Below, one piece after another: positions 17,921 to 35,423 of a DNA stretch of 64,000 bases. The notes under the pieces were generated by a model, which searched no databases, had not been told where the DNA came from, and worked only from the letters and a program-made list of their open reading frames with translations. A program made the position numbers and the translations under genes. The DNA comes from an uncultured Actinomycetes bacterium (lineage in GTDB: Bacteria > Actinomycetota > Thermoleophilia > Gaiellales > JAICJC01), in NCBI GenBank assembly GCA_963709425.1, contig CAVPWG010000002.1, positions 65,372-129,371 of the forward strand, given 5' to 3'. The number at the start of each line of letters is the position of its first letter. The first letter of the stretch is position 1.

Positions 17921-18462
17921 TGCCCCGGGGCGGGGCGCGACCCCCTCGGACGTCCCGCTCCGGCGGCTGGCCACAGGCTCAATCGCGGTGCTCCCTGCGG
18001 CCGATCACAGCGCAGGTACCCCCGTGAACATGTCCGACCGAACAACCCTTGCCGAAGCCGGCCCCGGTCGCTGCCGCGTCGGTCGTGGACGTCGAACCGA
18101 CCGCGGCGAGTCAGGAGCTCCGGACGATCTCGAGCGGGGGTCAGTCGATCGCCGCCAGCGCGCCGCGGGCGTTGTCATCGACGACATCCGGCCGCGGTCG
18201 GCGAGCACCTCCGCACGATCAGGCACCCGGCACGAGTGCGGCGTGTGCTCGCTAATGTCGTAGTGCGCGTAGAGCGGCTGCATCGGTCTCGTGGCTTGAC
18301 CTAGACGTCGGTGGGCTTCCCGATGGGCTGGCTTGAGGTGACGACGTCGAGCTCGTGCCAGTCCCTGAGCTCACGGGCGACGGGATGCAGCACCTCGACT
18401 TGGGTTCGCTCGGACGTCTGCAAGCAACAATTGTGCAGCGCGCCCCGGTCGCGTGCAGGCCG

Positions 18463-18488
18463 AACGTTCTGGAAAGTTCTGGAACGTT
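18463..18488. promoter_or_regulatory. Inverted repeat AACGTTC-N12-GAACGTT containing two direct GTTCTGGAA copies 10 nt apart
   Basis: Read directly in the 790-bp gene-poor gap. It lies upstream (minus sense) of two small tandem ORFs. Confidence 0.35.
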
Positions 18489-18630
18489 TACGGGGACTGT
18501 TCGGATTCCGTGATCGCGCCCGGCGGGCCGTCCCGAGCGGCTAGGGTCGGTGGCCGAGGAGAGAGGCGGGTGGCGCACGGTTCGAAGACCGGCGTCCCTC
18601 GGAGTCGTCCAGGGAGGGAGGTCGAACGGC

Positions 18631-19470
18631 ATGGTGGGCATCCGAAGACGATTGGGGCGCTCGTGCGCGGTCGCGATCCTGACGGCCGCAGCCCTCGCGG
18701 TGCTGAGCCCGACAGTGGCGCTCGCGCGCCCGCACGGGCAGTTCCGGGTGAGCTGCCCCTACAGCCACTCGAAGTCCGACGATCCGATCGTCTACCCGGA
18801 CCAGCCGGGCGCGTCGCACCTGCACGACTTCTTCGGCAACAACTCGGTCGATGCGTTCTCGAATGAGTCGTCGCTCCGCGCCGGCACGACCACGTGTAGC
18901 ACCCCGGATGACCTGAGCGGCTACTGGGAGCCCGAGATGTACGTCAACGGCAAGCCCCGGCCGGCGCCGAAGATGACGATCTACTACGTGGGCTACGGCA
19001 ACACCGAGCCGATGCCCGCCGGCCTCCAGATGGTCGCAGGCGACTCGCACGCGACGCACCTGCAGTCGACTGCGGTCCTCCAGTGGACGTGCGGCGACGG
19101 CACGCCTAAGCAGACGAAGCCATACAACTGCAAGCCCTGGCTTAAGGTCGACCCGGGCGGGGTGACAGCGCTCGTCAAGTTCCCGACCTGCTGGGACGGC
19201 AACGGGCTCACGCGCGACCACGTCGCCTACACCGTGCGGGGCGGAAACTGCCCGGCGGGGTTCGGCCACTCGATCCCGCTGGTCAGGATGTTCCTGAAGA
19301 CGGGCATCGTGAACCCGCGGGATGCCAACAATCACGTCAGGATCGGCTTCTCGAGCGGAAAGCACTACACACTGCATGGCGACTTCTTCAGCGCCTGGGA
19401 TCAGGCCCGGATGAACTCGCTGACGCAGAACTGCATCAACGCCGGCAAGAACTGCGGCCGCATCACGTAG
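18631..19470 (+). CDS. Secreted DUF1996-family protein
   Basis: ATG 18631 follows GGGAGGGAGG. A signal peptide (AILTAAALAVLSPTVALA) precedes the SHLHDFFGN motif that I associate with DUF1996. Confidence 0.7.
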   Translation: MVGIRRRLGRSCAVAILTAAALAVLSPTVALARPHGQFRVSCPYSHSKSDDPIVYPDQPGASHLHDFFGNNSVDAFSNESSLRAGTTTCSTPDDLSGYWEPEMYVNGKPRPAPKMTIYYVGYGNTEPMPAGLQMVAGDSHATHLQSTAVLQWTCGDGTPKQTKPYNCKPWLKVDPGGVTALVKFPTCWDGNGLTRDHVAYTVRGGNCPAGFGHSIPLVRMFLKTGIVNPRDANNHVRIGFSSGKHYTLHGDFFSAWDQARMNSLTQNCINAGKNCGRIT

Positions 19471-19675
19471 GCGTCACCGGCCCGGATACAGGTGGCAGGC
19501 GACCTGCACGTCGCCGACCGGACGCAGGGCCGGGTCGATCGGATCGTGGAACTCGACGGCCGCGCCGTCGTCCGAAGGATCGACCGACCGGACGCCTGTC
19601 CAGAATGGTTCGACCTCTTTGACGAGCACCGGGCGGGAGATGTTGGCGGCGGAGTTCTCCGTCTCGCCGCCGCAG

Positions 19676-20269
19676 TCACACCTGGCCGCGACCCGTGGAT
19701 CGGGCAGTGGTCGGAAGATCCAACCCCTCGCGGCAGAGCTGGGCGGCGACGATCTCGCGGGCCTTGTAGATCCGCCACTTGACGTTCGCCAGGCTCGTCT
19801 CCAGGGCGTCGGCGATCTCCGCGTACGGGAGGCCGACGACGTCGCGCAGCAGCAGCGCCATCTTCAGATCCACGCTCAGCGCCCCGATCGCCCGCCAGAC
19901 GATCTCCATCTCCTCGATGGGGAGCGACTGCGGCGGTGCGGTGAGCTCCAGATACGCGTCGGCATCGAGCTCCAGCGAGCGGCCGCCCCGCCGCTCGCGT
20001 GCCCTCAGCTCATCGACCACCCGGTGCTTCGCGACCTGAAACAGCCACGTCGTGAACAGACAGCGACTGTCGAAGGTCGGCAGCGCCCGGTGGACGCGGA
20101 TGAAGACCTCCTGGCAGACATCCTCGGCCAACGCCCGGTCGCCCGCCAGCACCCGCACGACGTAGTTGTGAAGCGGCGCCTGGTACTGCCGCATGATGGC
20201 CGCAAACGCGTCGTCATCACCGCGCTGTGCGAGACGCAGCATGTCAGGGTCAGGTTGTGGGAGAGCCAC
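19676..20269 (-). CDS. ECF sigma factor
   Basis: Region 2 (EDVCQEVFIRVHRALPTFD, FTTWLFQVAKHRVVDELR) and region 4 (LLLRDVVGLPYAEIADALETSLANVKWRIYKAREI) are present. The start is GTG 20269 or ATG 20242. Confidence 0.85.
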   Translation of the reverse strand: MALPQPDPDMLRLAQRGDDDAFAAIMRQYQAPLHNYVVRVLAGDRALAEDVCQEVFIRVHRALPTFDSRCLFTTWLFQVAKHRVVDELRARERRGGRSLELDADAYLELTAPPQSLPIEEMEIVWRAIGALSVDLKMALLLRDVVGLPYAEIADALETSLANVKWRIYKAREIVAAQLCREGLDLPTTARSTGRGQV

Positions 20270-20363
20270 GATAGGTCACAGTCAAGAGTTCGTCACGAAC
20301 GTAACCCGGCACTCTGGCGATGCGCCGTTGGACCCGTCTTGGGCGCGGTTGTCGCGGTTGGGT

Positions 20364-21053
20364 CTATCCGACGATCCGCGCCGCCCGCCCGCGGCCGATG
20401 GTCGTGAGCTTGTCTCCCTGGACGATCAGCGCGGTGTCCTCGTCGAGCGCGTATCCCACATGTCCTTCTCCGAGATCGGCGATCGCTGCCCGGAGGCGCG
20501 GCGTCGTCTCCCACCCGTCGGCGTGGACCTCGACGGTGAACGGCACGAGCCCGAGCCCCGCGACGACCGCGACCTCCTCGAGATCCTCGCCTGCATGCTC
20601 GGGGCAGATCGGGCGCCCGTGGTGGCGCCACCCGCCGACGACGGCGTGCGTGGCGGCAATTGCCGCGCCGGCGGAGAACCCGGCGTAGGGCGCGCCGCGC
20701 TCGACGAGCCACCGGATCAGATCGTCGCGGACGGGAACCAGGGACGCCGCGTATTCGGGGGTGAGACCACCGCCCACCAGGAGCCCGTCCGCCTCGGCGA
20801 GGTCGTCGACGTTCATCTGGTCGCCGAGCCGGACGGGGACGACGACAGGCTCGACGCCGCCGGCCGACCCGAGCGCGCGGACGAAGCGGGCGCCGTACTC
20901 GTCGATGCCGTCGCCCTCGTCGAGAAGGACGATGGCGACCCGGGCCACACCGGAACGGCGAGCTGCAACGGCACTCGCCTCGCGCAGGAATGCGTCGTAG
21001 ATCGCAGGCTGGGCATGTTCGTCCCAGCCCCCGCCGATCAGCGTGATGTGCAC
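20364..21053 (-). CDS. Peptidase S51 / cyanophycinase-like type-1 glutamine-amidotransferase-fold protein
   Basis: VHITLIGGGW..., LLVGGGLT and AGFSAGAAIA (nucleophile-elbow-like) are present. The start is set at GTG 21053. Confidence 0.6.
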   Translation of the reverse strand: MHITLIGGGWDEHAQPAIYDAFLREASAVAARRSGVARVAIVLLDEGDGIDEYGARFVRALGSAGGVEPVVVPVRLGDQMNVDDLAEADGLLVGGGLTPEYAASLVPVRDDLIRWLVERGAPYAGFSAGAAIAATHAVVGGWRHHGRPICPEHAGEDLEEVAVVAGLGLVPFTVEVHADGWETTPRLRAAIADLGEGHVGYALDEDTALIVQGDKLTTIGRGRAARIVG

Positions 21054-21066
21054 CTCATCCGATCTG

Positions 21067-21342
21067 TCAGGCGCGTCGAAACGCACGGCGGAGCAGAGAC
21101 GGTCGTTGCGGCTGTGTCTTCCGCCACTCGTCCAGCAGCGGTAAGCGCCCGGCTCGGCGTGCGGCGTCGACGCACTCCGTGTGTGCATGCCGCCGCCGGC
21201 GTGGATCGCCCTCCGGCGCGATGAGCATGTGGCTGGTCATGGCGTGCAGGTGGTAGCCGCACAGCGGGCAACGGTATGTCGACGGCTTCCGATTGTGCGC
21301 TGGGCGAATCGCCCACCATCGTGCCGTGTCCAGTTTCCCCAC
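21067..21342 (-). CDS. Small conserved zinc-ribbon-like protein
   Basis: YRCPLCGYHL...HAHTECV forms a Cys2/His-Cys cluster. The frame looks coding. Confidence 0.55.
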   Translation of the reverse strand: MGKLDTARWWAIRPAHNRKPSTYRCPLCGYHLHAMTSHMLIAPEGDPRRRRHAHTECVDAARRAGRLPLLDEWRKTQPQRPSLLRRAFRRA

Positions 21343-21404
21343 GGTGGAATCATGCCGCTGTTCGCTGGTCGTTGGACCCGCTCATCCTCGGTGCATGATG
21401 CGGC

Positions 21405-22241
21405 CTACGCGCGCGAGACGACGATGCGGTACTCGTTTTGAAGGCTGTATCCCCCGTCTGGAGTTCGGTACTGCTCCATGCCGCGTGCGATGGCGTCCCC
21501 GAGCTCGTGCTCGCGATCCGGCCCGGCGAGGAGCGCGAGCCCGGCGACGGCGAGCATCGCGCGCCGGAGGGTCTGTTCGTCGGGGAACTCGGCGCTCCAG
21601 CTCGTCACGAAGTCGTCGGCGATGGTGAGGCCGGACGCAGCGACGAGTCCCTCGAGCACCCCCGGCGCCGACAGGTCAGGATCGGCCGGCGCATCGGCAG
21701 GACGCGGCGGGAAGAACGTGCGGGCAATGCTCTTCATCGCCTCGAAATCGCAGCACTCGTGCCGCCCCCAGACCTGGATCACGACGGACGCGCCGGGCTT
21801 CGCGACCCGGCGCGCCTCCGCCAGCGCGGCGACGATGTCGTTCGCGAAGAAGAACGAGTTGAACCCGGCGACAAGGTCGAACGAGTCGGCCTCATACGGC
21901 AGCGCCTCCATCTCGCCGTCCCGCAGGTCGGCGTCCGGCAGACGTTCGTGCGCGAACTCGATCAATGCCGCGGAAGCGTCCATGCCGAACGGCTCGCCGC
22001 CGCGGTCGACCACGAGACGCAGAAACGAGCCAACGCCACAGCCGACGTCGAGCACGCGGTCGCCCGGGCTGATCGGGGCGTGCGCCAGCGCCGCCTCGTA
22101 GGTGGGCGTCTGCTGATCCTCGCTGAGCGCCCAGTCGGCGGGCCGGGCGCCCCACAGCCGCCCCCACCGCTCGGCGCTGCCCACCGTTCCGGGTGATGCA
22201 TGTGTGACCACGTCGACTCCTTCCACTAGACTATGGTTCAT
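21405..22241 (-). CDS. Class I SAM-dependent methyltransferase
   Basis: Motif I (VLDVGCGVGSF) and later motifs (DLVAGFNSFFF) are present. The start codon lies inside the operator palindrome, so the start is uncertain. Confidence 0.8.
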   Translation of the reverse strand: MNHSLVEGVDVVTHASPGTVGSAERWGRLWGARPADWALSEDQQTPTYEAALAHAPISPGDRVLDVGCGVGSFLRLVVDRGGEPFGMDASAALIEFAHERLPDADLRDGEMEALPYEADSFDLVAGFNSFFFANDIVAALAEARRVAKPGASVVIQVWGRHECCDFEAMKSIARTFFPPRPADAPADPDLSAPGVLEGLVAASGLTIADDFVTSWSAEFPDEQTLRRAMLAVAGLALLAGPDREHELGDAIARGMEQYRTPDGGYSLQNEYRIVVSRA

Positions 22242-22264
22242 AGTTATAAACTATGGAACATAGT
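22230..22264. promoter_or_regulatory. Twin palindromic operator ACTATGGTTCATAGT-TATAA-ACTATGGAACATAGT between divergent genes
   Basis: Two 15-nt ACTATG-N3-CATAGT palindromes were read directly in the only AT-rich patch of this intergenic region. Each contains the ATG of one divergent gene. Confidence 0.6.
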
Positions 22265-22864
22265 TCTCGCAACAACGACGGGCTCACGCTCTTCTCGTAT
22301 GAGATTCTCGGCCTCGTCGGACGAGGCGGTGCCGCCGCCCACGACCTGCTTCGCATGGCGCGCCGCGGCCGCATCCTGGCGTGGGCGGGGGAGAGCCAGT
22401 ACTACGTCGAGCCCAAACGGCTGGCCGCGCTCGGATATCTGTCAGCCCGCAAGGAGCCGGGCCGGACACGAGAGCGAACTGTGTACTCGCTCACCGACAA
22501 GGGGCTTCGAGCCCTCCAGGAGCACGCCCGCACGCCGGCCACCATCGTCCCCTTCAAGAGCGACGCGCTGCTTCGCCTGCTCATCTGCGATCTCGTCGGA
22601 GAGCCAGTCACCCGGGCGAGCATCGAGGCGCTCCGAAACGAGATCGCGGACCTCCGGCGACGCATCGACGACACCGACGCCTCCGCGCGAGAGCTGCCGC
22701 ACCGATCGACGTACCTCATGATGACGAACGACTTCCTCCGAGGGCTGATCGACCTGCACGCCGAGCTCATCGAGCGCGTCGAGCGCGAGCTGGCGGCTGA
22801 CGAGCTCGACACTGAGAACGCTTCGGCGCCGGTCCGCGGCGTCGGAGATCATACGAGCGGCTGA
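22253..22864 (+). CDS. PadR-family transcriptional regulator
   Basis: A winged-helix pattern (FSYEILGLV...YYVEPKRLAALGYLSAR...RTVYSLTDKGLRAL) is followed by a long C-terminal helical domain. Confidence 0.8.
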   Translation: MEHSSRNNDGLTLFSYEILGLVGRGGAAAHDLLRMARRGRILAWAGESQYYVEPKRLAALGYLSARKEPGRTRERTVYSLTDKGLRALQEHARTPATIVPFKSDALLRLLICDLVGEPVTRASIEALRNEIADLRRRIDDTDASARELPHRSTYLMMTNDFLRGLIDLHAELIERVERELAADELDTENASAPVRGVGDHTSG

Positions 22865-22887
22865 CGGCCGCGGGCCGGCTTTGGCGA

Positions 22888-22930
22888 TGGGCCGTGCTGG
22901 GATCGAACCAGCGACCTTGGGATTAAAGTC
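22888..22930 (-). repeat. Partial copy of the tRNA-Lys 3' half (att-like direct repeat, distal copy)
   Basis: Positions 22888-22927 are identical over 40 nt to 31439-31478 (discriminator, acceptor 3' strand, T arm, variable loop, 3' anticodon stem). The upstream sequence lacks a D arm, so this is not a functional tRNA. Confidence 0.8.
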
Positions 22931-23124
22931 GCCGCCACGCCGTGACGGCCCGTACCGGCTGGTGCCGGGAAGTCCAGGATTAGCAGGGCTTTCCGGCACT
23001 CGCCCTGTGCGCGCCGTGACGGCTCGTGTCGCCCTGTTTCGGCTCGTGCGTTTGCAATCCGTTAGCGGCGCAGCCTCAGATCGGATGATCGGAGCGCACT
23101 TGCGCACCCACCGCCGCGAAGACG

Positions 23125-23328
23125 TCAGGCGTCGCCCGTGCCGAGCTCGCGTTCGAGCTCCTCGACACCGGCGCCGAGCCTTACCATCTCCTGCTTCACG
23201 TTCGCTATTGACTCCGCTTTCGCCGTGTCTGCCTGGTCTGCCGGGTGGAGGTCGGCGACCATCATTTGGGGCCGGTCGAAGGTCGCGCGCATCTCGGCGA
23301 GCCGGGCGCGTTCGGGCTCGGAGGGCAC
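23125..23328 (-). CDS. Small hypothetical protein (67 aa, helical, acidic)
   Basis: The tracked ORF has mostly G/C third positions. There is no recognisable motif. Confidence 0.35.
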   Translation of the reverse strand: MPSEPERARLAEMRATFDRPQMMVADLHPADQADTAKAESIANVKQEMVRLGAGVEELERELGTGDA

Positions 23329-23761
23329 CCGGGGGAATCTAGCCGCGCTGGCACCGGCGGCGGCTTAGCTGGCGATCGCCGCCGGGTTCGCTGCACAGCC
23401 GGCGGCCAGTCTCGGAGCAGGCGATTGGAGAGGCGGCACTAACGGCGTTTGGCGTAGCGCGCTACTCCGGTCGTGTCGAAGGCCACGCACGCGTCGCCGC
23501 CGACCCCACAAGCAAGCCGGGGGTCGACGCCCCGCGGGGCGTAGGAGTTCACTTGAAGGTGACCTCGTACCCCCTGCGAACCCCACGGGTACGGCAGCGT
23601 GGGCGGATTTCGGCGGTGGATCGGGTCCATCATCTGGAGCGCGAAAAGACAGCTCAGTGTGGAACGGCAGCTCCCTCCCGGCTGACGGAGCCAGCGCGGT
23701 GTGTGCTACATCTCGGTTCGCAGGTCGTGCGGCTTTCGGAGCTCTTCGGTGGGAGGATGCG

Positions 23762-26101
23762 ATGGAGGCAACAGGGCGTCGGGCGTTTTTGATCTCGAAG
23801 GGGTGGATCCAGGCTGCGATCCTCGTCGTGGTGACGGGGTTCTTCGTGCTCGGGCTGCTGGCGTACCGCACCTACATGGAGCAGCCGCCGGTACCCGGGA
23901 AGGTTGTTGATCCTGCGGGCAGGGTGGTGTTCACGGGGTCTGACGTTCACGCCGGACAGGAGGTGTTCCTGCAGAACGGGTTGATGGAGTACGGTTCGGT
24001 GTTCGGTCACGGCGCCTACCTTGGGCCTGACTACACGGCCGACTATCTCCGTCGCTCGGCGAGTCTCGTGAGGCGCTCGTACGGCGGCGCGGGGTCGGAT
24101 TCCGCCTCCCGCCGCACCGTCGCGGACTTCCGCACCAACCGGTACGAGTCACAGTCCGGCACGCTGACGTTCACGAACGCCCAGGCGGACGCGTTCAGGC
24201 GCCTCGTTTCATACTACGGCGGCTTCTTTTCCGATTCCACCAGCGAGCATGGGCTTGTGCCGAAGGCGATTACCGACCGGCGGGAGGTGCGTCAGCTGAC
24301 CGCGTTCTTCGCCTGGACGGCGTGGGCGGCATCGGCCGGGCGGCCCGGTCACAACTACTCGTTCACGAACAACTGGCCGCCAGAGCCGCGGGTTGGAAAC
24401 AGGCCTACCGCCAACGTGATCGTGTGGTCGGTGCTGTCGTTGATCGCGCTGCTCGGTGGCATCGGCGTCTTGTTTGCGGTCTTTGGCCGGTGGGGGCAGC
24501 GACTCGGCTGGCACGGCCGCGAGCAGGCGACGCTGGTGTTCCGCTCGCCAGGCGACGTGGCGCTCACCCCGGCGCAGCGCGCCACCGCCTGGTTCTTCTT
24601 CGTCATGGCCGCGCTGTTCCTGATTCAGACGCTGGCCGGGGCGGCGAGCCAGCATTACCGCGCCGAAATCGACAACTTCTTCGGCTACGACCTCGCACGG
24701 GTGTTCCCGTACAACCTGATGCGGACCTGGCACGTGCAGCTCGCCATCTTCTGGGTCGCGACCTCGTTCGTGGCGGCCGGCATCTTCCTGGCCCCGATGA
24801 TCGCACGACGCGAGCCCAAGCACCAGGGCAAGCTCGCGTTCGCGCTGCTCGGCGCGCTGGCCGTGGTCGTCTTCGGCATGCTGATCGGCTCTTACCTGGG
24901 CGTGCACGGCGTGCTGACCGACGCCGCCTCGAACTGGTTTGGGCTGCAGGGCTTCGAGTACCTCGACCTCGCACGGCTGTGGCAAGTGCTGCTCTCGGTC
25001 GGCCTGTTCGGCTGGGTCTTCATGCTCTGGCGGGTCCTGCGTCGGCGGCTGGCGTCGGAGCACCCTGGGAACATGCCGTGGCTGTTCTTCCTCGCCGCCT
25101 GCGCGATCCCCGCCTTTTACGCCGTGGGCCTGCTCGCCCGTAGCGAAGACACGTTCACCACCACCGAGTTCTGGCGCTTCTGGGTCGTGCACCTGTGGGT
25201 CGAGGACTTCCTCGAGCTGTTCACGACCGTGATGGTGGCGTACATGTTCGTGCTGCTTGGGGTGGTCCGCGAGCGGGTCGCCCTGACGGTGGTGTTCCTC
25301 GACATCATCCTGTACTCGGTGGGCGGGGTGATCGGCACCATGCACCACCTCTACTTCTCCGGCGAGCCGGCAGAGCACATGGCGCTGGGCGCGTTCTTCT
25401 CCGCCGCCGAGGTCATCCCGCTCACGTTCCTGACCGTCGAGGCGTGGTCGTTTCTCCAGCTCGGCGCCGCCCAACAGGCGCGGTCGCCAACGCCGTTCCC
25501 GCACCGCTGGGCGGTGATGTTCCTCGTGTCGGTCGGGTTCTGGAACTTCCTCGGCGCCGGCATCTTCGGCTTCTTGATCAACCTGCCGATCGTGTCCTAC
25601 TACGAGATCGGCACCGCGCTCACAGCCAACCACGGACACGCGGCCATGATGGGCGTCTACGGGATGCTCGCGCTCGGCCTGGCGCTGTTCTGCCTGCGCT
25701 ACCTGATCCCGGCCGAGCGCTGGCCCGAGCGCTGGGCGCGCATCTCGTTCTGGTCGACGAACATCGGGCTGGCCTGGATGTGCTTCGCCACCCTCCTACC
25801 ACTCGGCATCATCCAGCTGTACAAGTCGGTCAACTCCGGATATTTCGAAGCGCGCGAGGCCAAGTTCCTCACCAACGACACAAACGCGCTCCTCGAGTGG
25901 CTACGCCTCCCGGGTGACCTCCTGTTCATCATCGGCGGTGCCGTCCCCACCCTCTACATCGCCTGGATCGGCATCCGACACACCGTCAACCGGGTCACCC
26001 TCGACGAACCCGAGGGCGGCATCCTCTTCACCGACATCATGCTCCCACCAAGCGCCACTGGGGCGGGCGGCGATGAGGCGACCGCCGCCCGGCTTATATG
26101 A
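23762..26101 (+). CDS. norZ: Quinol-dependent nitric oxide reductase (qNOR, single-subunit NorB/NorZ type)
   Basis: ATG 23762 follows GGGAGG. An N-terminal TM plus periplasmic extension (GHGAYLGPDYTADYL) precedes a heme-copper-oxidase core with VVHLWVEDFLELF, GTMHHLYFSG and NHGHAAMMGVYG. Confidence 0.85.
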   Translation: MEATGRRAFLISKGWIQAAILVVVTGFFVLGLLAYRTYMEQPPVPGKVVDPAGRVVFTGSDVHAGQEVFLQNGLMEYGSVFGHGAYLGPDYTADYLRRSASLVRRSYGGAGSDSASRRTVADFRTNRYESQSGTLTFTNAQADAFRRLVSYYGGFFSDSTSEHGLVPKAITDRREVRQLTAFFAWTAWAASAGRPGHNYSFTNNWPPEPRVGNRPTANVIVWSVLSLIALLGGIGVLFAVFGRWGQRLGWHGREQATLVFRSPGDVALTPAQRATAWFFFVMAALFLIQTLAGAASQHYRAEIDNFFGYDLARVFPYNLMRTWHVQLAIFWVATSFVAAGIFLAPMIARREPKHQGKLAFALLGALAVVVFGMLIGSYLGVHGVLTDAASNWFGLQGFEYLDLARLWQVLLSVGLFGWVFMLWRVLRRRLASEHPGNMPWLFFLAACAIPAFYAVGLLARSEDTFTTTEFWRFWVVHLWVEDFLELFTTVMVAYMFVLLGVVRERVALTVVFLDIILYSVGGVIGTMHHLYFSGEPAEHMALGAFFSAAEVIPLTFLTVEAWSFLQLGAAQQARSPTPFPHRWAVMFLVSVGFWNFLGAGIFGFLINLPIVSYYEIGTALTANHGHAAMMGVYGMLALGLALFCLRYLIPAERWPERWARISFWSTNIGLAWMCFATLLPLGIIQLYKSVNSGYFEAREAKFLTNDTNALLEWLRLPGDLLFIIGGAVPTLYIAWIGIRHTVNRVTLDEPEGGILFTDIMLPPSATGAGGDEATAARLI

Positions 26102-26730
26102 GCGCCGAGGTCATACTGGCGGCCGGCTACGCCGCGGCCCTGATCGCCGGCGCCTTCTCGCTCGAATGGCTGTCAGCACACACCCACCGCCGCTCGCTTC
26201 GGTACCGCACCGCCGGGTTCACCTACCACGAGACGCTTGACCACTGGAGCTGCCCCGAGGGCCAACATCTATGGCCGCACGAGTTCGACTACGACCGCCG
26301 ACTAGTGCGCTACCGGGCCAAAGCACACATCTGCAACGCCTGCGCCCGCAAACCCGACTGCACCGACTCCAACCACGGCCGCGAGGTCGTCCGCCCGCTC
26401 GACCCGTGGCCCCACTCCGAGGCTGGCCGGTTCCACCGCGTGATCTGCCTGCTCCTCGTCGCCCTCGCGGCGCTCATCCTCCTCATCGAAACCGCACGCC
26501 ACCACCACACGGCTGAGCTCGGGCTGCTCACGACGCTGCTGCTCGCCGCCGCCGCCGCCGCGCGCTGGCTGGAACGCGACCTCGCCGCCCATCCCACCAC
26601 CTTCCCGCACCCATCTGCATCTCATGGCCTACGCCTGGCAACCACCGCAACCGACCGTCGACACGCCAACAGCCAGCCGCCATCGCAGACCGGCCCAGAT
26701 ACCTCACCGCAAAGACCACCCAGCGCCTGA
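26098..26730 (+). CDS. Membrane protein with a Cys/His-rich cytoplasmic module, translationally coupled to qNOR
   Basis: ATGA overlap with the norZ stop. It has an N-terminal TM, then FTYHETLDHWSCPEGQHLW...YRAKAHICNACARKPDCTDSNHGREVVR, then two TM segments. Confidence 0.6.
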   Translation: MSAEVILAAGYAAALIAGAFSLEWLSAHTHRRSLRYRTAGFTYHETLDHWSCPEGQHLWPHEFDYDRRLVRYRAKAHICNACARKPDCTDSNHGREVVRPLDPWPHSEAGRFHRVICLLLVALAALILLIETARHHHTAELGLLTTLLLAAAAAARWLERDLAAHPTTFPHPSASHGLRLATTATDRRHANSQPPSQTGPDTSPQRPPSA

Positions 26731-27019
26731 CACTGCCACCGGTCGTGCGGCCGAACTCGTCGCGGCCACCGCCCACGAAGGGCGGAGTGGGGTGTGGAGT
26801 TGGAGGCGCGAATCGGCGAGGCATCGTCGCGCTCGTCGCGACGACGTGCGTGTCCGGCGTGGGTCGGCTCAGCGGCGGCACTGGCCTTAACACCGACGCC
26901 ACGGCTCGTGCAGCCCGATCCGTGCACTTTCGGGCCAACCGCCGGTACGTGACGTAGAGATTGACTCCAGAGGGACGAGTGGCCAAAGAGGCGGCCTATC
27001 GATTGGGTATCGTCCTCCC

Positions 27020-27340
27020 ATGCCGGAACTCCCAGACGAGGGCGCCGCGCCCGACGAACTGCTGGCACCGGCCGCGTACGATCGTCCGCCCGACGCGGCG
27101 CCGCCCGAGTCGGGCCGGCACGAGCGCCCGCAGGGTATGTTGCCGGGCCGTGAGCGACGCCGCAGCGTGATCGAGCGCGGCTTCGTGCGCGTCATCGCCA
27201 CGGGTGGGATCATCGGGATTGGCACCCTCCTGGGCGCCGTCCTCGTCAGCCAGGCCGTTGAGGGGTGGATCGTCGGGCTCGCCGTCGGTATGACGTCGGT
27301 CGTTCTGGCCGCCCTGCTCTGGTCGTCGCGACAGCTCTAA
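27020..27340 (+). CDS. Small membrane protein (106 aa, two C-terminal TM segments)
   Basis: Third positions are G/C-rich throughout. The hydrophobic tail reads VIATGGIIGIGTLLGAVLV...IVGLAVGMTSVVLAALLW. Confidence 0.5.
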   Translation: MPELPDEGAAPDELLAPAAYDRPPDAAPPESGRHERPQGMLPGRERRRSVIERGFVRVIATGGIIGIGTLLGAVLVSQAVEGWIVGLAVGMTSVVLAALLWSSRQL

Positions 27341-28783
27341 GCCGCGCGCTCGGGCCATGCGAAGGAGGCGAGAGGGACGCGGCGGCCGCGGGCCGGAAGG
27401 TCGTCGGGCGCCTCGCCGGCCCACAGGATGAGGGTGCGGGCGGCGATGTCGCGGCCGCGGCGGAGCATGATCGCGTCGATTCCAGCGGCGAGCTGCTGCC
27501 GTCGATCCTGTGTGGAGAGGTCGGGCCAGAGGGCGGGCAGCCCGGCGGCGATCCGGAGACCGGCCGAGGCCGACACGGCCATGGCGGTGTCCAGCGCCTG
27601 CTGCGCGGCCTTTTGCTTTTGCCGGCGGCTGGTCAGGCCGGCGGCATAGGCGTCGCGGCCGACCTCGCGGACGCTCACCGCCTCGATCCACGCCGCTAAC
27701 TCGGCCTCGGTTTCGGCGAGCGCGTGCCGCGCATGCTCGGTCGCGGCGCGGTCGGCAGCCGGGCGAGTGAGGGCTCCATCCGGTCCGAGCTCCGCCAAGA
27801 ACGCCGCGACGACGTGCGGCTCAACAACGTGTGCGAGGACGCTCGTCGGCGTGGGGCAGTGCCCCGCGGCATGCTCGCCCCGGCACCGGTACTGGCGCAG
27901 GTTCCCCCCGCGGCTGGAGATCGTGTCGGGCTTCATGACGTATCTGCAGCCGGCGCATCGGAGAAGGCCGGCCAAGAGCGCGCCGCTGGGCGAGCGGAGC
28001 GGCGAGACGGTTCGCCGGGTCAGCTGCGCCGCACGCCATTCTGCCTTCGAGACCAGCGCGGGATGGGCGCCGTCCTTGTGGTGCTGCCCGGAACGTGCCT
28101 GGCCGGTGTACACGGGATTCTCGATCACGTTCCGCACGGCACCTGTCGTCCACGCCGTGCCGCCGTATGGCCCGACGATCCCGGCGGCTTCGAGGATGCC
28201 GGCGAGCTCTTTCCACGACGCGCCTGCCGCTCGCCGCCGGAACACGTCGGCGATCGTAGGCGCGGCGCACGTCGACTGGCTCCAGCCGGCCGTCGGCCCC
28301 CCGGCGATAGCCCGTCGGTAGCCGGCTGGCGATGTGGACGCCCCGGTTGACGGCCGACTCCTGTGCCCTCGCCCAGGTGTCGCGGATCCGGTCAACCTCG
28401 AGCTGCGCTAGCGCCAGGATCATGTGAAGAGCGAACTTGCCCGTCGGCGTGCCGGTGTCGAACTTCTCCTCGACGCTGACCAACCGGCCGCCAGCGTCGT
28501 CGACGCGCCTGATGGCCGCGGCAGCCGCGGCCATGCTGGGTGCGATGCGATCGAGCTTCGCCACGACGATGCCGTCGGTCTTGCTCGCCTCGATCCGCGC
28601 TAGGGCCCGCTCGAGTCCTGGCCGTGGTGCCTTGTTGCCGGCCTCGTCCAGGTCGTCGTGCCACGCCGCTATGTGGTGGCCGTGGAGGGCGCAGAACGCC
28701 TCGATCTCGTCTCTCTGCGCCCCGGCGGAGACGAAGTTCTTGCTGCTCCTATGGCTGACTCTGATGTAGCCGTCGACGTTCAT
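27337..28783 (-). pseudogene. Large serine recombinase, reading frame broken once (pseudogene or assembly indel)
   Basis: The N-terminal resolvase domain (MNVDGYIRVSHRSS..., frame of ORF 27821..28876) runs to ...PTGYRRGADGRLEPVD. The recombinase, Zn-ribbon and coiled-coil part (TIADVFRRRAAGASWKELAGIL..., LLRCAGCRY...YRCRGEHAAGHC) continues in the frame of ORF 27337..28395. The junction is near 28255-28276. Confidence 0.75.
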
Positions 28784-28800
28784 AGGAGTGCCGTCCGCGT

Positions 28801-28959
28801 CTACAGGCGCTCGTCCTCGCGAAGCACGCTGGCCACGTCTGCCATCACATGGAGCAGGGGTGCACAGAGGGGGCACTCCTCGGGCGTCGCGCCGGAGTGG
28901 CCGTTGCGCTCGGTGGGCAACAGGGGGGCGGTAATGGGGGGCTCCATGCGATCTCTCAT
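28801..28959 (-). CDS. Untracked mini-ORF (52 aa, CxxC) 17 nt upstream of the serine recombinase
   Basis: Hand translation gives MRDRMEPPITAPLLPTERNGHSGATPEECPLCAPLLHVMADVASVLREDERL. Third positions are mostly G/C, and AAGGA lies just upstream. It is below the 60-aa track cutoff. Confidence 0.4.
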   Translation of the reverse strand: MRDRMEPPITAPLLPTERNGHSGATPEECPLCAPLLHVMADVASVLREDERL

Positions 28960-28999
28960 TCCTTGGGCTCTTGGGTTCGTCGGTCGTTGGTGCCGCGCA

Positions 29000-29023
29000 C
29001 CCCTGGCCGGCTTCGGCCAGGGG
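29000..29023 (-). terminator. Perfect 9-bp stem-loop (CCCCTGGCC-N6-GGCCAGGGG) 15 nt after the stop of the 29039..29233 gene
   Basis: Read directly. There is no U tract. Confidence 0.4.
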
Positions 29024-29038
29024 CTCGCGGATGCTGCT

Positions 29039-29233
29039 CTAGCGTGAGGTGGTCAGCCCGAGGAGATTCTCCACATGGAGCATCTCGCCGCGGAAGCTGT
29101 TGTAGTCCTGCTCGCTGGCCGCCTTGAAGGCGGGGTCAGCACCGTCGCGCACGATGCGGAAACGATCGGTGGCGCTCTTCAGTGCCTGCGCAACGTTCAT
29201 CTCAGCAGTGCGGGTGGGGATGGAAGTCGTCAT
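29039..29233 (-). CDS. Small hypothetical protein (64 aa)
   Basis: A GAGAGGAA ribosome-binding site lies upstream. The third-position bias looks coding, and a stem-loop follows the stop. Confidence 0.5.
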   Translation of the reverse strand: MTTSIPTRTAEMNVAQALKSATDRFRIVRDGADPAFKAASEQDYNSFRGEMLHVENLLGLTTSR

Positions 29234-29541
29234 GCTGTTCCTCTCAGTTCAGGCTCTCTTCGGCCTGGTATGTCCACCGTATCACGACTATGGCCTATAT
29301 GCAATACGATAGATACCGTCAAAGGGCATAATCCGCACCGATCGGGCGCCCTAGGTCTCGAACTCGATAGACAGTTCGATGTGCCAGCCCATTATTCTGG
29401 CGATCGTAGAACCACCGTTGGCGGTGCAGGTAGCGACGGCGCGACCCTTGGCAGGTTCCACCAGCGTTGACCCGAAGCGCGGCGAGATCCTGCTCGTCGC
29501 AGGCGATCGACCACCCGCCAACGACTAGACCGCGACTGGCC

Positions 29542-29993
29542 CTACCGGGCCACTGACTCAGCTGCCTTCTTGAGGTGGCCGAGCCATGCCATCAGCGACC
29601 CGTCGAGCAGGGTTTGCATCCCGGCCGCGTCGGCTTCGACCGGCTCTCCTGCGAATGACTCGTTGGTCTCCACGTGGGCGCCGCCGGGTGTCTCACGGAA
29701 GATCCATTCGTGGACGCCGGTGATCCCGCCGGCGGTACCTCCCAGAGCACGCGGGATCGTTCGGACAGGTTGTAGATCGTGGAAGTTACGGGGAATCCGT
29801 AGCTCGACCAGTCGAACGAGGCTCCTTCCTCGAACGCGCCATCGAGGTGCGCCTCGGTGACGTCGGTCTGCCAGATCGGCCACGTGTTGACCTCAACGTG
29901 GAGTCGCCACACGACGTCCAGCGGCGCCGCTATCTCGGTCTCGTGGTGAGAAACCACGGGTGCGTCACGATCGATGGCCGTGGGCGTTGTCAT
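29542..29993 (-). pseudogene. SRPBCC-superfamily protein (polyketide cyclase/AHSA1-like), one frameshift
   Basis: The N-terminal part (APLDVVWRLHVEVNTWPIWQTDV...TSTIYNLSERSRVLW) is in the frame of ORF 29592..29993. The C-terminal part (GGTAGGITGVHEWIFRETPGGAHVETNESFAG...) is in the frame of ORF 29542..29883. The junction is at the CCC/GGG run 29741-29743. Confidence 0.7.
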
Positions 29994-31179
29994 GGCTCTC
30001 CTCCCGCGCGCTGGTCCGGGCTACGCGCCAGAGCCTAGCCCGTCCGATCAGTTCTCCGGCACGGATTCAGCCGCATGACACACCCGCCGATGCATCGAGC
30101 CTCGGCGTCGACCATCCGGGGCGCGGATTTCGAGTACCCCCCGCTTCTCCTCTTCGCCGGCGGGCGCGGTCTTACCGGGACGCCCGAGACGTTGCGGCGC
30201 TGAGGGCGGGCCGAGGCGGGGGAGGCCGCCGTGGCGGACGGCCTCCGCACCCCTTCGACTCCTGCCTCGCGGGAGGAACCCTTGGCAGTCTGCCCCGAGT
30301 CGTGAGCGACGATATCCGCCCGCAACGACAACGCGATGGCCGCTATCCATCTTTTCACGAGCGCTCGCCGGTCAGGCGGGACATGCGCGAGCGGTTCGCT
30401 AACCTGAAGGGGTGCCCGCGCCGGGCCCTACCGCGCCCGCCGGGCTAGCCGCGTCTCGTCCTACACCCACGGCTCGGCTCCCCAAGTCGACGCCTCCCCC
30501 TAGGACGGGGCGCGGTGAAACAGTGGGGGCCGCCCGGTCGGTACCTAACCAGCAAGACGCGTTCTACGCGGGCCGGTGGCAACTCGTGCAGTTCCCGTCC
30601 CGGTCGAACCTGCCGCCGCACCAATCGCATCGTTCGACCCGGCTGGCCTTCGGCCGTGGGAGGAGCGTGGGCAGCACCACCGCTGTCAGCGTCACCGGCA
30701 CCCTGCGAATGCTACCTAACGGCGTCCGCACTCAGGCGTGGATGTAATCCTCGCGTTCTTGACCGCTCGCCGGACGTCGGCCTACGCGCCCTCGGCTGAC
30801 TGTCTATCCGCGGATGGCTCGAGCTCGTCGGCGTTCCATCACCGCGTCGATCGCCCAATGCTCGCGCTTCCGCCACTCGCCGCCTAGTTCTCGGCAGAGC
30901 CACCGCCCCGACTCGGAGCAGGCGACGGTCTCGAGGCCGGCAGAGCACCGGCCTGGGAGCGGCTGGTGGAGACGACCGCAGAGGGAGCACCGACTGCGTG
31001 GGTCGAGAGCCGTCACGGCAGGGCGGAGAGCTCGGCGTTCACGGCCCGACGTGCCTCCTTGAGGTGCGGCAGCATTTCGTTGCACCGGTCGAGACGCGTC
31101 GAGGTCGTCTGGCACCTGAATCTCGATGGTTCGCACGGTTCGGTCATCCTCGGTGTGTGCCGTATGTGCGCCACCCCGT

Positions 31180-31213
31180 AAAAAACCCCTGCAAGCGTTC
31201 TCCTCGAGCGGGG
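31180..31213 (-). terminator. Intrinsic-terminator-like hairpin followed by T6 (minus sense)
   Basis: The minus strand reads CCCCGC-N15-GC(A)GGGG-TTTTTT. This is one of very few T tracts in the window. Confidence 0.45.
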
Positions 31214-31278
31214 CCGCTTGGTTGAGCACAAAACGGCGTAGCCGTGCGCCTTGACACCCCTTGTCGCTTCGGTTCCAG

Positions 31279-31303
31279 TGCTGAAGGTGGGAGTCGAACC
31301 CGC
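31279..31303 (-). other. tRNA-like 3' fragment (T arm GCGGGTTCGACTCCCAC plus CTTCAGC-A), no matching 5' acceptor
   Basis: A canonical GGTTCGACTCC T loop was read on the minus strand. I could not fold a complete cloverleaf or a tRNA-Sec. Confidence 0.35.
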
Positions 31304-31438
31304 ACGGCCCGCGCGCGACCAATGAGTCGGCAGCGGTCGCTGCATCGTTCGCCGGGCACCTCGTACACGTCCCGTACACATTAGGCCACGAACAATCGAT
31401 TCGATGAGCAGGTTCCGCTCAACCAAGCCGTTCTAGAG

Positions 31439-31482
31439 TGGGCCGTGCTGGGATCGAACCAGCGACCTTGGGATTAAAAGTC
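31439..31482 (-). repeat. Proximal copy of the att-like direct repeat (3' half of tRNA-Lys)
   Basis: It matches 22888-22930: 40 nt are identical, then a one-A length difference, then GTC. Confidence 0.8.
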
Positions 31483-31511
31483 CCCTGCTCTACCAGCTGA
31501 GCTAACGGCCC
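31439..31511 (-). tRNA. tRNA-Lys (anticodon TTT)
   Basis: Hand-folded as GGGCCGT TA GCTC AGCTGGTA GAGC A GGGGA CTTTTAA TCCCA AGGTC GCTGG TTCGATC CCAGC ACGGCCC A. CCA is not encoded. Confidence 0.9.
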
Positions 31512-31546
31512 CAGGGAGCCAAGTGTAGGTGGTAGCTTGGGCGCCC

Positions 31547-32150
31547 ATGCTGCGCATCGGCCATCGCGGCGCAGCCGCTCTCGCGCCCGAGAACACCCTC
31601 GCCGCAATGCGCGCTGCGATCGGTGCTGGCGTGGACATGGTCGAGTTCGACGTGGCGCCCGGACTCGTCGTGGGCCACGACGGCGGCCCACCCCGGTCCC
31701 GGTCTCGCGTCATTCCTCGCCGAACTCGCAGAGATCGCCCCGCCCGAGCTCGGCTTCCTGGTCGATCTGAAGGGGTGCGGCTACGAGCGCGACACGCTCG
31801 CGGCGTGCGCGGTCGCCGGCCTCGCGGACCGGTGCGTGTTCTCGACCGGCGAGCTGCGCTCACTCATCGCGCTGAACGACGACGCCCGGACGAGTGCCAC
31901 GATCACGCCGGGCCGGTTCTGGGTGCCCTGGGGCAAGGTCACACCCGCCGACGTCCATGCCCGGTCCGGCGCCCGCGACGCAACGCTGCGACATGACATC
32001 GTCACCGCCGAGACCGTCACCGCCGTGCACGAGCGTGGCGGCCGGGTGCTCGCCTGGACCGTGAACACGCGCGACGGCATCGAGCGCATGCGCGCGCTCG
32101 GCTGCGACGGCGTCATCACCGACGACCCGCGACTGTTCCACGAGGAGTGA
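31547..32150 (+). pseudogene. Glycerophosphodiester phosphodiesterase (GDPD family), one frameshift
   Basis: MLRIGHRGAAALAPENTLAAMRAAIGAGVDMVEFDV...VVGHD is in one frame. PGLASFLAELAEI...LVDLKG...LAWTVNTRDGIERMRALGCDGVITDDP is in the +1 frame. The junction is at the CCCC run 31691-31694. Confidence 0.7.
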
Positions 32151-32152
32151 CC

Positions 32153-33160: not shown

Positions 33161-33212
33161 TGCTGCCCACCGGATGGGAACTGTTCACCGCCGTCGAACG
33201 TATTAACTGCAG

Positions 33213-33392
33213 ATGACCTCTGGCAAGCCCGCAACGATCCTTCCGCTCACCAAGGACGCCGCTTGGCGGCGGTACCTCGAACTGACCCGCGACGTGGACG
33301 CTGCCGACTACGCCGAGACGGAAGCCGAGGCCTGGGAGGAGCTCCAGGCCGCTCTGGAGCGCATTCCGGCCCGTCCGGACGACGCGGCCTGA
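33213..33392 (+). CDS. Untracked small ORF (59 aa, acidic, helical)
   Basis: Hand translation gives MTSGKPATILPLTKDAAWRRYLELTRDVDAADYAETEAEAWEELQAALERIPARPDDAA. Third positions are strongly G/C. Confidence 0.45.
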   Translation: MTSGKPATILPLTKDAAWRRYLELTRDVDAADYAETEAEAWEELQAALERIPARPDDAA

Positions 33393-33410
33393 CCGGTATC
33401 CTGCCCGCGC

Positions 33411-33483
33411 GCCCCCATCGGCTAGCGGCCTAGGCCCCCGCCCTTTCAAGGCGGTAACACGGGTTCGAATCCCGTTGGGGGTA
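33411..33483 (+). tRNA. tRNA-Glu (anticodon TTC)
   Basis: Hand-folded as GCCCCCA TC GGC TAGCGGCCTAG GCC C CCGCC CTTTCAA GGCGG TAAC ACGGG TTCGAAT CCCGT TGGGGGT A. Confidence 0.9.
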
Positions 33484-33653
33484 TCCGGATCGGCGTCGAT
33501 GCGACACCCGCATGGTTGGGCGGGTCACACGTGTCGCTGGGGCCACCAATGGGCGTGTGGCCCCCCTCGGTGGGCCGGCCCGATCCATCGATGGGACGGC
33601 CTCCGCACATCGCGACGCCTTCGTGGCGGCGTCCACCGGCCCACGGCCGTACT

Positions 33654-34774: not shown

Positions 34775-34835
34775 CAGCCCGCCTTCGCCGTCGGCTCGAC
34801 GATCGGCAGTCCCTTGGCGTCAGGCGTCTGGGTCT

Positions 34836-35192: not shown

Positions 35193-35423
35193 CCCAACCT
35201 CCTGAGCAACAAACGCCCCTCCCTGCTCGTATCGACCGCCGTCAATATATCGAGGAACGTCGATGCGTGCAAAAAGGCGCCGGCTCGTAGTGGGCATGTC
35301 CATGGGAACTCACGGCAAGCCGGTCATCGCCTGGTGAACCACCGCCCCGCAGTGGTGGCAGCGTCGAGTTCGAGTCGCCGGGGTGGGCGGAGCCTCGATT
35401 CGGGGCTCCGCCCACCGTCCCGC

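What the first reader, a model, noticed from the sequence alone, without database searches (positions are those of the whole stretch)
26098..26730. Membrane protein with a transposase-like Cys motif, translationally coupled to qNOR
The ATG overlaps the norZ stop (ATGA). The product has an N-terminal TM helix, two later TM helices, and a cytoplasmic segment FTYHETLDHWSCPEGQHLWPHEFDYDRRLVRYRAKAHICNACARKPDCTDSNHGREVVR. The pattern F-x-Y-x3-D-x-[WY]-x-C-P-x-G ... Y-R-A-x4-C-x2-C-x5-C-T-x4-G-R-x-[VI]-x-R is, from memory, the cysteine module found between the N-terminal and DDE domains of IS1182/IS5-type transposases. Here it sits in a small membrane protein with no DDE domain. I know of no described NOR accessory factor of this kind. 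It could be a redox or metal-sensing partner, or a domesticated transposase fragment.
Basis: partly seen in the sequence, partly recalled or inferred. Interest (0 to 1): 0.6.

Follow-up and report, generated by a model that had tools for sequence, protein, structure and literature searches.

The report
Transposase-derived membrane partner of qNOR
A small, conserved three-helix membrane protein, whose cytoplasmic four-cysteine domain was borrowed from an IS1182-type transposase, is always encoded directly behind, and overlapping, the gene for a quinol nitric oxide reductase, an enzyme the field regards as working alone.

Summary
Window 26098-26730 (+) is an intact 210-aa ORF whose ATG overlaps the qNOR stop (ATGA). 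It has three TM helices and a cytoplasmic C-x26-C-x2-C-x5-C module.

The module is homologous to an insertion inside the DDE domain of IS1182 transposases (NCBIfam E 2e-9; hhalign 98.4%, E 8.8e-15).

The ORF is not an IS remnant:
- It belongs to a large family (134 clusters at 50% identity with E<=1e-30).
- It is under purifying selection (dN/dS 0.15 in the module).
- It has no transposase N-terminal domain or DDE core.

Every copy whose upstream DNA could be read, about 100 loci, lies directly downstream of qNOR. These come from Thermoleophilia, other Actinomycetota and Terriglobia-type metagenome contigs. The 4-nt overlap is kept in 75 of 79 loci.

In two samples of 401 genomes each, no genome has X without qNOR. 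The X-less qNORs compared form one clade.

Here the pair sits on an 8.5-kb island at tRNA-Lys. Neither gene was found in 60 relatives.

Best reading: a dedicated qNOR partner, either an accessory subunit or a maturation factor, built from an exapted transposase metal-binding module. Its biochemical role is untested. I found no description in the literature searched.

The parts
23762..26101 (+). qNOR (norZ) gene. The likely start is the ATG at 23762, because homologues align from about residue 36 of the longer GTG-started ORF at 23657.
   Evidence: PF22085 and PF00115; E 1e-148 to 1e-157 to solved qNORs; alignment starts.
26098..26101 (+). ATGA stop/start overlap between qNOR and X (translational coupling).
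   Evidence: A 4-nt ATGA or GTGA overlap is kept in 75 of 79 related loci.
26098..26730 (+). Gene X: a 210-aa, three-TM protein with a cytoplasmic Cys4 module.
26104..26172 (+). TM helix 1 (about aa 3-25); N-terminus predicted outside the cell.
   Evidence: AF2 helix with pLDDT 95-98; positive-inside count in 45 of 45 family members.
26182..26412 (+). Cytoplasmic Cys4 module (aa 29-105), homologous to the IS1182 transposase insertion module.
   Evidence: NF033551 E 2e-9; hhalign 98.4%, E 8.8e-15; dN/dS 0.15; domain model pLDDT about 90.
26251..26361 (+). The four invariant cysteine codons: C52 at 26251-26253, C79 at 26332-26334, C82 at 26341-26343 and C88 at 26359-26361. Spacing is C-x26-C-x2-C-x5-C.
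   Evidence: Invariant in A2, and still invariant when transposase modules are added in A4.
26419..26586 (+). TM helices 2 and 3 (about aa 108-134 and 138-163), joined by a short His-rich outer loop.
   Evidence: AF2 pLDDT 91-98; hydropathy.
26587..26727 (+). Variable, probably disordered cytoplasmic tail.
   Evidence: Poorly conserved and mostly gaps in homologues; pLDDT below 50 for residues 173-192.
22888..22927 (.). Distal copy of the 40-nt perfect direct repeat (one island border).
   Evidence: family D2.
31438..31511 (-). tRNA-Lys(TTT). Its 3' part (31439-31478) is the other copy of the 40-nt repeat, so the island spans about 22928-31438.
27337..28876 (-). Large serine recombinase split over two overlapping frames; island cargo downstream of X.
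   Evidence: PF00239 in one ORF, and PF07508 plus PF13408 in the other.

Best explanation
X is a dedicated partner of one clade of quinol-dependent nitric oxide reductases. It is made together with qNOR from one mRNA by translational coupling. It inserts into the membrane with three helices, N-terminus outside. It presents an 80-residue four-cysteine, presumably metal-binding, domain on the cytoplasmic face, where I infer it associates with qNOR as a small accessory subunit. The soluble domain was exapted from the insertion module inside the DDE domain of an IS1182-family transposase. The transposase N-terminal domain and catalytic core are gone, and TM helices flank the module instead.

Shown: the gene is real and under selection; the module is homologous to the transposase module; the architecture and four Cys are conserved; adjacency and coupling to qNOR are strict across two phyla; X never occurs without qNOR in the genomes sampled; the two genes moved here together on an island.

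Inferred: physical association with qNOR, metal binding, and the cytoplasmic site of action.
For: Real gene: dN/dS is 0.26 overall and 0.15 in the module. Juxtamembrane and module residues are invariant. The family has 1292, 401 and 134 representative clusters at E<=1e-3, 1e-10 and 1e-30.

Architecture: the layout and C52, C79, C82, C88 are kept down to 26% identity.

Linkage:
- 80 of 80 genome loci have qNOR ending just upstream.
- The overlap is kept in 75 of 79 loci.
- Only qNOR and X are conserved across loci, while flanks vary.
- 6 of 6 Terriglobia-type metagenome loci show the same arrangement.
- Phylum sample of 401 genomes: X in 11, qNOR in 14, X without qNOR in 0, and all 12 copies adjacent.
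- Class sample of 401: X in 14, qNOR in 22, X without qNOR in 0, all adjacent.
- The pair is duplicated in tandem as a unit in G316.
- The pair arrived together on a tRNA-Lys island, and neither gene was found in 60 relatives.

Topology: K+R average 8.8 on the module side against 1.3 on the other side, in 45 of 45 members.

Homology to the transposase.
Against: There is no direct evidence of a physical complex. AlphaFold-multimer was not available, and the qNOR-X fusion proteins in the database are singletons that a 1-nt indel at the 4-nt overlap would create. Solved qNORs from Geobacillus, Neisseria and Achromobacter function without such a partner (PMC12067857). A clade of related qNORs (61-65% identity) lacks X with no remnant, so X is not generally required for qNOR function. 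The metal is unknown, and the fold has no solved counterpart. No expression data were found.
Confidence: 0.6

Rival explanations
1. X is a maturation factor, not a stable subunit. Its cytoplasmic Cys/His-rich domain would hand iron to, or exclude zinc from, the cytoplasm-facing K-analog channel through which FeB is thought to reach the qNOR active site. It would act transiently, as a functional analogue of NorQ/NorD.
For: The linkage evidence is the same as for the best explanation. The module faces the cytoplasm. The close subfamily has many invariant His beside the four Cys (H30, H106, H113, H136, H165). PMC12067857 proposes that FeB enters qNOR through the cytosolic K-analog, and reports Zn in place of FeB in heterologously made Geobacillus qNOR.
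Against: Only the four Cys, not the His, are invariant across the wide family. A 4-nt translational coupling is at least as consistent with roughly one-to-one production of two subunits. Other qNORs acquire FeB without any factor (PMC12067857). X has no ATPase or other energy-coupling domain.
Confidence: 0.22
2. X is an NO- or redox-sensing element. The C-x26-C-x2-C-x5-C site would hold an Fe-S cluster or a reactive Zn-thiolate that responds to NO and modulates qNOR activity or stability.
For: The Cys spacing equals, as I recall it, the spacing of the [4Fe-4S] ligands in actinobacterial WhiB-like NO sensors (Cys9, 37, 40 and 46 in WhiB1; from memory, not tested). The module sits next to an NO-consuming enzyme.
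Against: The Pfam scan of X at E<=1 listed no WhiB family. The predicted fold is beta-rich, whereas WhiB-like proteins are, as I recall, helical. The same spacing is present in the parental transposases, so it was not selected for NO chemistry. X has no output domain.
Confidence: 0.1
3. X is co-transcribed with qNOR but functionally unrelated: a hitch-hiking small membrane protein kept by operon inertia.
For: Most loci come from related soil Actinomycetota, so part of the synteny is shared ancestry. X was lost once without loss of qNOR.
Against: The flanks around the pair turn over while the pair and its 4-nt overlap persist. The linkage holds between phyla at about 50% X identity. X never occurs apart from qNOR in about 800 sampled genomes. 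The pair duplicates and transfers as a unit.
Confidence: 0.06
4. The ORF is a decaying remnant of an IS1182 transposase gene.
For: Sources annotate some members as 'DDE family transposase'. There are partial hits to PF13751 and NF033551.
Against: Only 77 residues are transposase-like. NF033551 scores 36.9 bits against a cut-off of 270, with no PF05598 or PF01609 match. dN/dS is 0.15. TM helices are conserved and the length is uniform at about 170-210 aa across hundreds of clusters. The repeat scan of 18000-36000 listed no inverted repeat pair flanking the ORF.
Confidence: 0.01

Closest known systems
IS1182-family transposases (NCBIfam NF033551; Pfam PF05598 + PF01609/PF13751)
   Same: X aa 29-105 are homologous to the roughly 77-residue Cys4 module of these transposases. 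The invariant residues are identical: F, C, Y, C-x2-C-x5-C.
   Different: X lacks the N-terminal DUF772 domain and both halves of the DDE core. It is flanked by three TM helices, is a single-copy gene fixed next to qNOR, and the repeat scan listed no inverted repeat pair flanking it.
NorH, the small third membrane subunit of Thermus thermophilus cNOR (as described in PMC12067857)
   Same: It is a small membrane protein encoded directly after the NOR structural gene(s), in a NOR cluster that lacks NorQD chaperones. [quoted passage not shown]
   Different: NorH belongs to cNOR, not qNOR. I know of no transposase-like Cys domain in it. I had no NorH sequence to compare, so relatedness is untested.
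NorQ/NorD FeB-insertion chaperones and NorE/NorF of proteobacterial cNOR
   Same: They are accessory genes in the same cluster as the reductase, and NorQD acts from the cytoplasmic side (PMC12067857, PMC9976466).
   Different: X has no AAA+, VWA or COX3-like domain. It is membrane-integral, small, and tied to qNOR.
Small accessory subunits of other haem-copper and related oxidases (CcoQ, CydX, ba3 subunit IIa, CtaF); from general knowledge
   Same: They are short TM proteins co-encoded with, and bound to, the catalytic subunit.
   Different: None, to my knowledge, has a four-cysteine cytoplasmic domain or a mobile-element origin. X is not homologous to them by Pfam.
WhiB-like [4Fe-4S] proteins
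   Same: The spacing of the four Cys is, as I recall, the same (from memory).
   Different: There is no sequence match. The predicted fold is different and beta-rich. X is membrane-anchored.

Membership tests
IS1182 family transposase (NF033551) | Full-length match above the curated cut-off (270 bits) | tested here: not met
   36.9 bits, covering only profile positions 346-421 of 488. True members in L094, L095 and L102 score 318-424 bits.
IS1182 family transposase (NF033551) | N-terminal transposase domain PF05598 and DDE core PF01609 | tested here: not met
   Neither family appears in the Pfam scan of X at E<=1. Both are present in L094, L095 and L102.
IS1182 family transposase (NF033551) | Cys4 insertion module (F..C-x26-C-x2-C-x5-C) | tested here: met
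   hhalign 98.4%, E 8.8e-15, X 29-105 aligned to Tnp 352-428. The same six residues are invariant.
IS1182 family transposase (NF033551) | Mobile element context: terminal inverted repeats and multiple copies | tested here: not met
   One copy in the genome. The repeat scan of 18000-36000 listed no inverted repeat pair flanking the ORF. The position after qNOR is fixed in about 100 loci.
Pfam PF13751 DDE_Tnp_1_6 | Score above the gathering threshold over the domain | tested here: not met
   22.2 bits against a cut-off of 25.1, covering only profile positions 1-52 of 125.
qNOR / NorZ (the upstream gene) | NorC-like N-terminal domain fused to a NorB haem-copper-oxidase core | tested here: met
   PF22085 E 2.4e-52 and PF00115 E 8.1e-55. 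Matches solved qNORs at E 1e-148 to 1e-157 over nearly the full length.
NorQ / NorD / NorE accessory proteins | AAA+ MoxR ATPase, VWA/MIDAS domain, or COX3-like membrane protein | tested here: not met
   No such Pfam family is listed for X at E<=1.
NorH / NorF small NOR subunits | Sequence similarity to NorH or NorF | not tested
   No reference sequence or profile for these was in hand. The resemblance is positional and functional only (PMC12067857).
WhiB-like Fe-S proteins | Sequence match to a WhiB family, and a helical fold around the cluster | tested here: not met
   The Pfam scan at E<=1 lists no WhiB family. The model is beta-rich with two short helices. Only the Cys spacing matches, and that rests on memory.
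Stoichiometric subunit of a qNOR complex | Physical association with qNOR | not testable with these tools
   No multimer prediction or experimental data were available. The support is genomic: adjacency, coupling and co-transfer.
tRNA-integrated genomic island (the context) | Direct repeat of the tRNA 3' end bracketing the foreign segment | tested here: met
   A perfect 40-nt repeat at 22888-22927 and 31439-31478, the latter inside tRNA-Lys. Neither cargo gene was found in 60 relatives.

The most novel reading that the evidence does not exclude
X is the first dedicated protein partner of a qNOR. Its transposase-derived Cys4 domain would bind iron or an Fe-S cluster at the cytoplasmic mouth of the K-analog channel, and control which metal reaches the FeB site or gate the channel in response to NO. 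If so, a mobile-element insertion domain has been recruited into a respiratory or detoxifying enzyme complex, and 'single-subunit' qNOR is not single-subunit in a large group of soil bacteria.
Probability: 0.2. Interest if true: 0.85.

Novelty: new variant of a known kind. Interest (0 to 1): 0.68.

Why it matters
qNOR is treated as a one-gene, one-subunit, chaperone-free enzyme. [quoted passage not shown] In abundant soil lineages (Thermoleophilia, other Actinomycetota, Terriglobia-type Acidobacteriota) it instead comes with a strictly coupled partner gene that databases label 'hypothetical' or, wrongly, 'DDE transposase'.

This matters in three ways:
1. It gives a concrete candidate for how FeB insertion, metal selectivity or stability is handled in these qNORs. 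That bears on N2O emission from soil and on heterologous production of active qNOR.
2. It is a clean bacterial example of a transposase sub-domain exapted into a membrane protein.
3. Pipelines that count PF13751 as a mobile-element marker will mis-score these loci.

Tried and rejected
These include Cutibacterium acnes GAE68204.1 and Bryobacteraceae HLH03016.1. G346 turned out not to be the C. acnes type (45% identity).
- **Fusion proteins** with PF00115 or PF01145 are singletons of odd lengths. I read them as indel artefacts at the 4-nt overlap, or at the junction with the next gene, not as Rosetta-stone evidence.
- **Long open frames** (975-1171 aa) reported around X in G534, G635 and G766 are not fusions. 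qNOR lies in another frame.
- **Fold searches.** The full-length model gave no match with E<=0.001 in Foldseek PDB. The module-only model gave a best Foldseek E of 0.43 and a best VIA-wide Z of 3.9. No fold assignment follows, and this does not show the fold is new.
The single protein P0165 was used instead.
- **Expression.** No RNA holder was listed, and read laying was not used.
- **Promoter/terminator scan** was uninformative.
- **Literature searches** found no description of the pairing.
- **ZAS anti-sigma motif** (H-x3-C-x2-C) was considered. X has H-x-C-x2-C and a different architecture, so I rejected it.
- **qNOR residues that differ with X.** Eleven columns differ between X-linked and X-less enzymes, but they rest on a single evolutionary event, so they are leads only.
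Full report
**1. Observation.** Window 26098-26730 (+) is an intact 210-aa ORF. Its ATG overlaps the TGA of the upstream ORF as ATGA.

The upstream ORF is a genuine quinol-dependent NO reductase. It matches PF22085 and PF00115. It also matches the solved Achromobacter, Geobacillus and Neisseria qNORs at E 1e-148 to 1e-157 over nearly its full length. Homologues align from about residue 36 of the longest ORF, so the real start is probably the ATG at 23762.

The only correction is that the spacing is Y-x4-D, not Y-x3-D. The cysteines are C52, C79, C82 and C88, giving C-x26-C-x2-C-x5-C.

**2. Is the transposase similarity real?** Yes.
- NCBIfam NF033551 (IS1182 family transposase) matches X residues 29-105 at E 2e-9, profile positions 346-421 of 488.
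- Pfam PF13751 matches at E 1.9e-4, below its cut-off and covering only the first 52 of 125 positions.
- A profile of the X family finds the module inside 260-620-aa open frames in other Actinomycetota.
- Three of those frames are bona fide IS1182 transposases: NF033551 at 318-424 bits, with PF05598, PF01609 and PF13751.
- hhalign of the X family against one of them gives 98.4% probability and E 8.8e-15, aligning X 29-105 to transposase 352-428.
- Adding transposase modules to the family alignment leaves the same six residues invariant: F41, C52, Y72, C79, C82, C88.

In that transposase the IS5-like core models stop near residue 348 and resume near 442.

**3. Is X a remnant or a gene?** It is a gene.
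- It has none of the transposase's N-terminal or catalytic parts.
- It occurs once in its genome.
- The repeat scan of 18000-36000 listed no inverted repeat pair flanking the ORF.
- A word-seeded search found 2081 relatives of similar length.
- An exhaustive profile search of 1.84 billion representatives found 1292, 401 and 134 clusters at E<=1e-3, 1e-10 and 1e-30. Most are 170-210 aa and matched end to end.
- Across 77 close homologues, dN/dS is 0.26 overall, 0.15 in the soluble module and 0.47 in TM2-TM3.
- The stretches bordering the helices, and the module itself, are almost invariant.
- Members down to 26% identity keep the order TM1, module, TM2, TM3 and all four Cys.

**4. Structure and topology.** AlphaFold2 gives three long helices with pLDDT above 90. 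When the module is folded alone with a deeper alignment, it forms a confident small beta-rich domain. Two short helices in it carry C79, C82 and C88, and pLDDT is about 87-93 over X residues 39-98.

Neither Foldseek (best E 0.43) nor an exhaustive VIA search (best Z 3.9) finds a convincing solved relative. No fold is assigned.

In all 45 diverse members, Lys plus Arg are concentrated on the module side of the helices (mean 8.8 against 1.3). The N-terminus is therefore outside, and the module and tail are cytoplasmic. That suits a thiolate metal site and a cytoplasmic ancestor.

**5. Linkage to qNOR.**
- All 80 loci fetched from species-representative genomes have a qNOR gene (78-84% identical) ending immediately upstream of X. 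Almost all are Thermoleophilia MAGs and one is labelled Acidimicrobiales.
- In 75 of 79 of these loci the qNOR stop and the X start overlap by 4 nt, as ATGA or GTGA.
- Only these two genes are conserved across the loci. No flanking gene is shared by more than about 20 loci.
- A distant subfamily typified by a Terriglobia MAG protein (about 50% identical to X) shows the same arrangement in 6 of 6 metagenome contigs that include upstream sequence.

Two genome samples give these counts:

| Sample | Genomes | With X | With qNOR | X without qNOR | X adjacency |
|---|---|---|---|---|---|
| Window's phylum | 401 | 11 | 14 | 0 | all 12 copies adjacent |
| Window's class | 401 | 14 | 22 | 0 | all adjacent |

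One genome in the phylum sample, G316, carries two qNOR-X pairs in tandem. In the class sample qNOR and X are in different frames, so the long open frames reported there are not fusions. The sets overlap in part (for example G534 is L057) and many genomes are related, so these are not 100 independent events.

**6. qNORs without X.** Eight genomes of two families have an intact qNOR that is 61-65% identical and has no X. A sensitive hmmsearch finds no remnant nearby.

On a quick maximum-likelihood qNOR tree, the seven full-length X-less enzymes form one clade (SH-aLRT 100) on a long stem. That clade is nested among X-linked enzymes. One loss would explain this, but the root is not established.

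X is therefore specific to a qNOR lineage and dispensable in at least one offshoot. Eleven qNOR columns distinguish the two groups, among them R36L, E538A, Q566R and R582Y, with no indels. With one event behind them, they are leads for an interface, not evidence.

**7. Context in this window.** A perfect 40-nt direct repeat (22888-22927 and 31439-31478) duplicates the 3' part of tRNA-Lys at 31438-31511. The roughly 8.5 kb between the copies holds qNOR, X, a serine recombinase split over two frames and little else.

None of 60 genomes of the same genus, family and order has a match to X or to this qNOR. The class is Thermoleophilia, because G534, placed in the same class, is identical to a Solirubrobacterales MAG. 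The nearest qNORs are from Solirubrobacterales-type MAGs at 83-85% identity. The pair was therefore acquired together, as one unit, by horizontal transfer within the class.

**8. What it most likely does.** Three lines of genomic evidence point to a protein that works with qNOR in the membrane:
- obligate co-occurrence;
- conserved translational coupling, which fits roughly equimolar synthesis;
- co-duplication and co-transfer.

I favour a small accessory subunit whose cytoplasmic Cys4 domain binds a metal (confidence 0.6 for physical partnership).

The main alternative (0.22) is a maturation factor. PMC12067857 argues that qNOR receives FeB through a cytoplasm-facing K-analog channel and can be mis-metallated with zinc. 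A membrane-tethered cytoplasmic metal-binding domain is well placed to influence that.

An NO- or redox-sensing Fe-S role (0.1) rests only on a Cys spacing that also occurs in the parental transposases. Hitch-hiking (0.06) and IS remnant (0.01) are disfavoured by the data above.

None of the biochemical steps has been tested.

**9. [quoted passage not shown]

Known NOR accessory proteins (NorQ, NorD, NorE, NorF, NorH) belong to cNOR. X shares no domain with NorQ, NorD or NorE, and could not be compared with NorH or NorF.

Sources call family members 'hypothetical protein', 'DDE family transposase' or 'Transposase DDE domain-containing protein'. Searches of about 8.4 million papers and preprints found no description of the pairing.

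X is therefore an undescribed family. It fills a known kind of role, a small partner of a haem-copper-superfamily enzyme, but it has an unusual origin and an unexpected host enzyme.

**10. Limits.**
- No multimer modelling, coordinates or RNA data were available.
- Distribution outside Actinomycetota rests on a few metagenome contigs and on MAG protein names.
- The Cutibacterium acnes member could not be placed in its genome.

Noticed in passing
window 22888-22927 and 31439-31478; tRNA-Lys 31438-31511 (-): A perfect 40-nt direct repeat of the tRNA-Lys 3' part brackets an 8.5-kb island carrying qNOR, X and a frame-split large serine recombinase. No intact tyrosine integrase was seen among the ORFs of 28800-31600.
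   Followed up: partly
window 23376-23424 and 30877-30925: A 49-nt imperfect direct repeat (80% identity) lies about 450-550 nt inside each island border. Its meaning is unknown.
   Followed up: no
G316:C17:17629-23993 (partly in L088): Two qNOR-X pairs lie in tandem on one contig. The second qNOR match contains one TAG. The module duplicates as a unit.
   Followed up: partly
L113, L136-L141 (G149, G468, G609, G537, G543, G513, G808): A clade of qNORs in two Thermoleophilia families lacks X entirely and sits on a long stem branch (0.62) in the qNOR tree. This could reflect adaptation of qNOR after loss of X.
   Followed up: partly
L013:6468-7427 (+) and L013:3005-3517 (-): An SPFH/Band 7 gene follows X in 13 of the 80 loci, and some database 'fusions' join X to it. 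A LuxR-type response regulator lies upstream of qNOR in 19 loci. These may be lineage-specific additions to the module.
   Followed up: partly
L094:1108-2787 (-), L095:1171-2721 (-), L102:559-1962 (+): Intact IS1182-family transposases in other Actinomycetota carry the same Cys4 module. The module has no detectable solved structural relative, so its role in transposition is also open.
   Followed up: partly
Protein P0301 (GAE68204.1, Cutibacterium acnes JCM 18909): A 185-aa family member is annotated in a cultured skin bacterium.
   Followed up: no
window 26077-26097 and the equivalent position in L002-L081: Most Thermoleophilia loci have GAGG 8-11 nt before the X start, inside the last qNOR codons (a conserved ...A-R-L-T* tail). 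The window has CGG there instead, so its Shine-Dalgarno-like signal is weaker.
   Followed up: no
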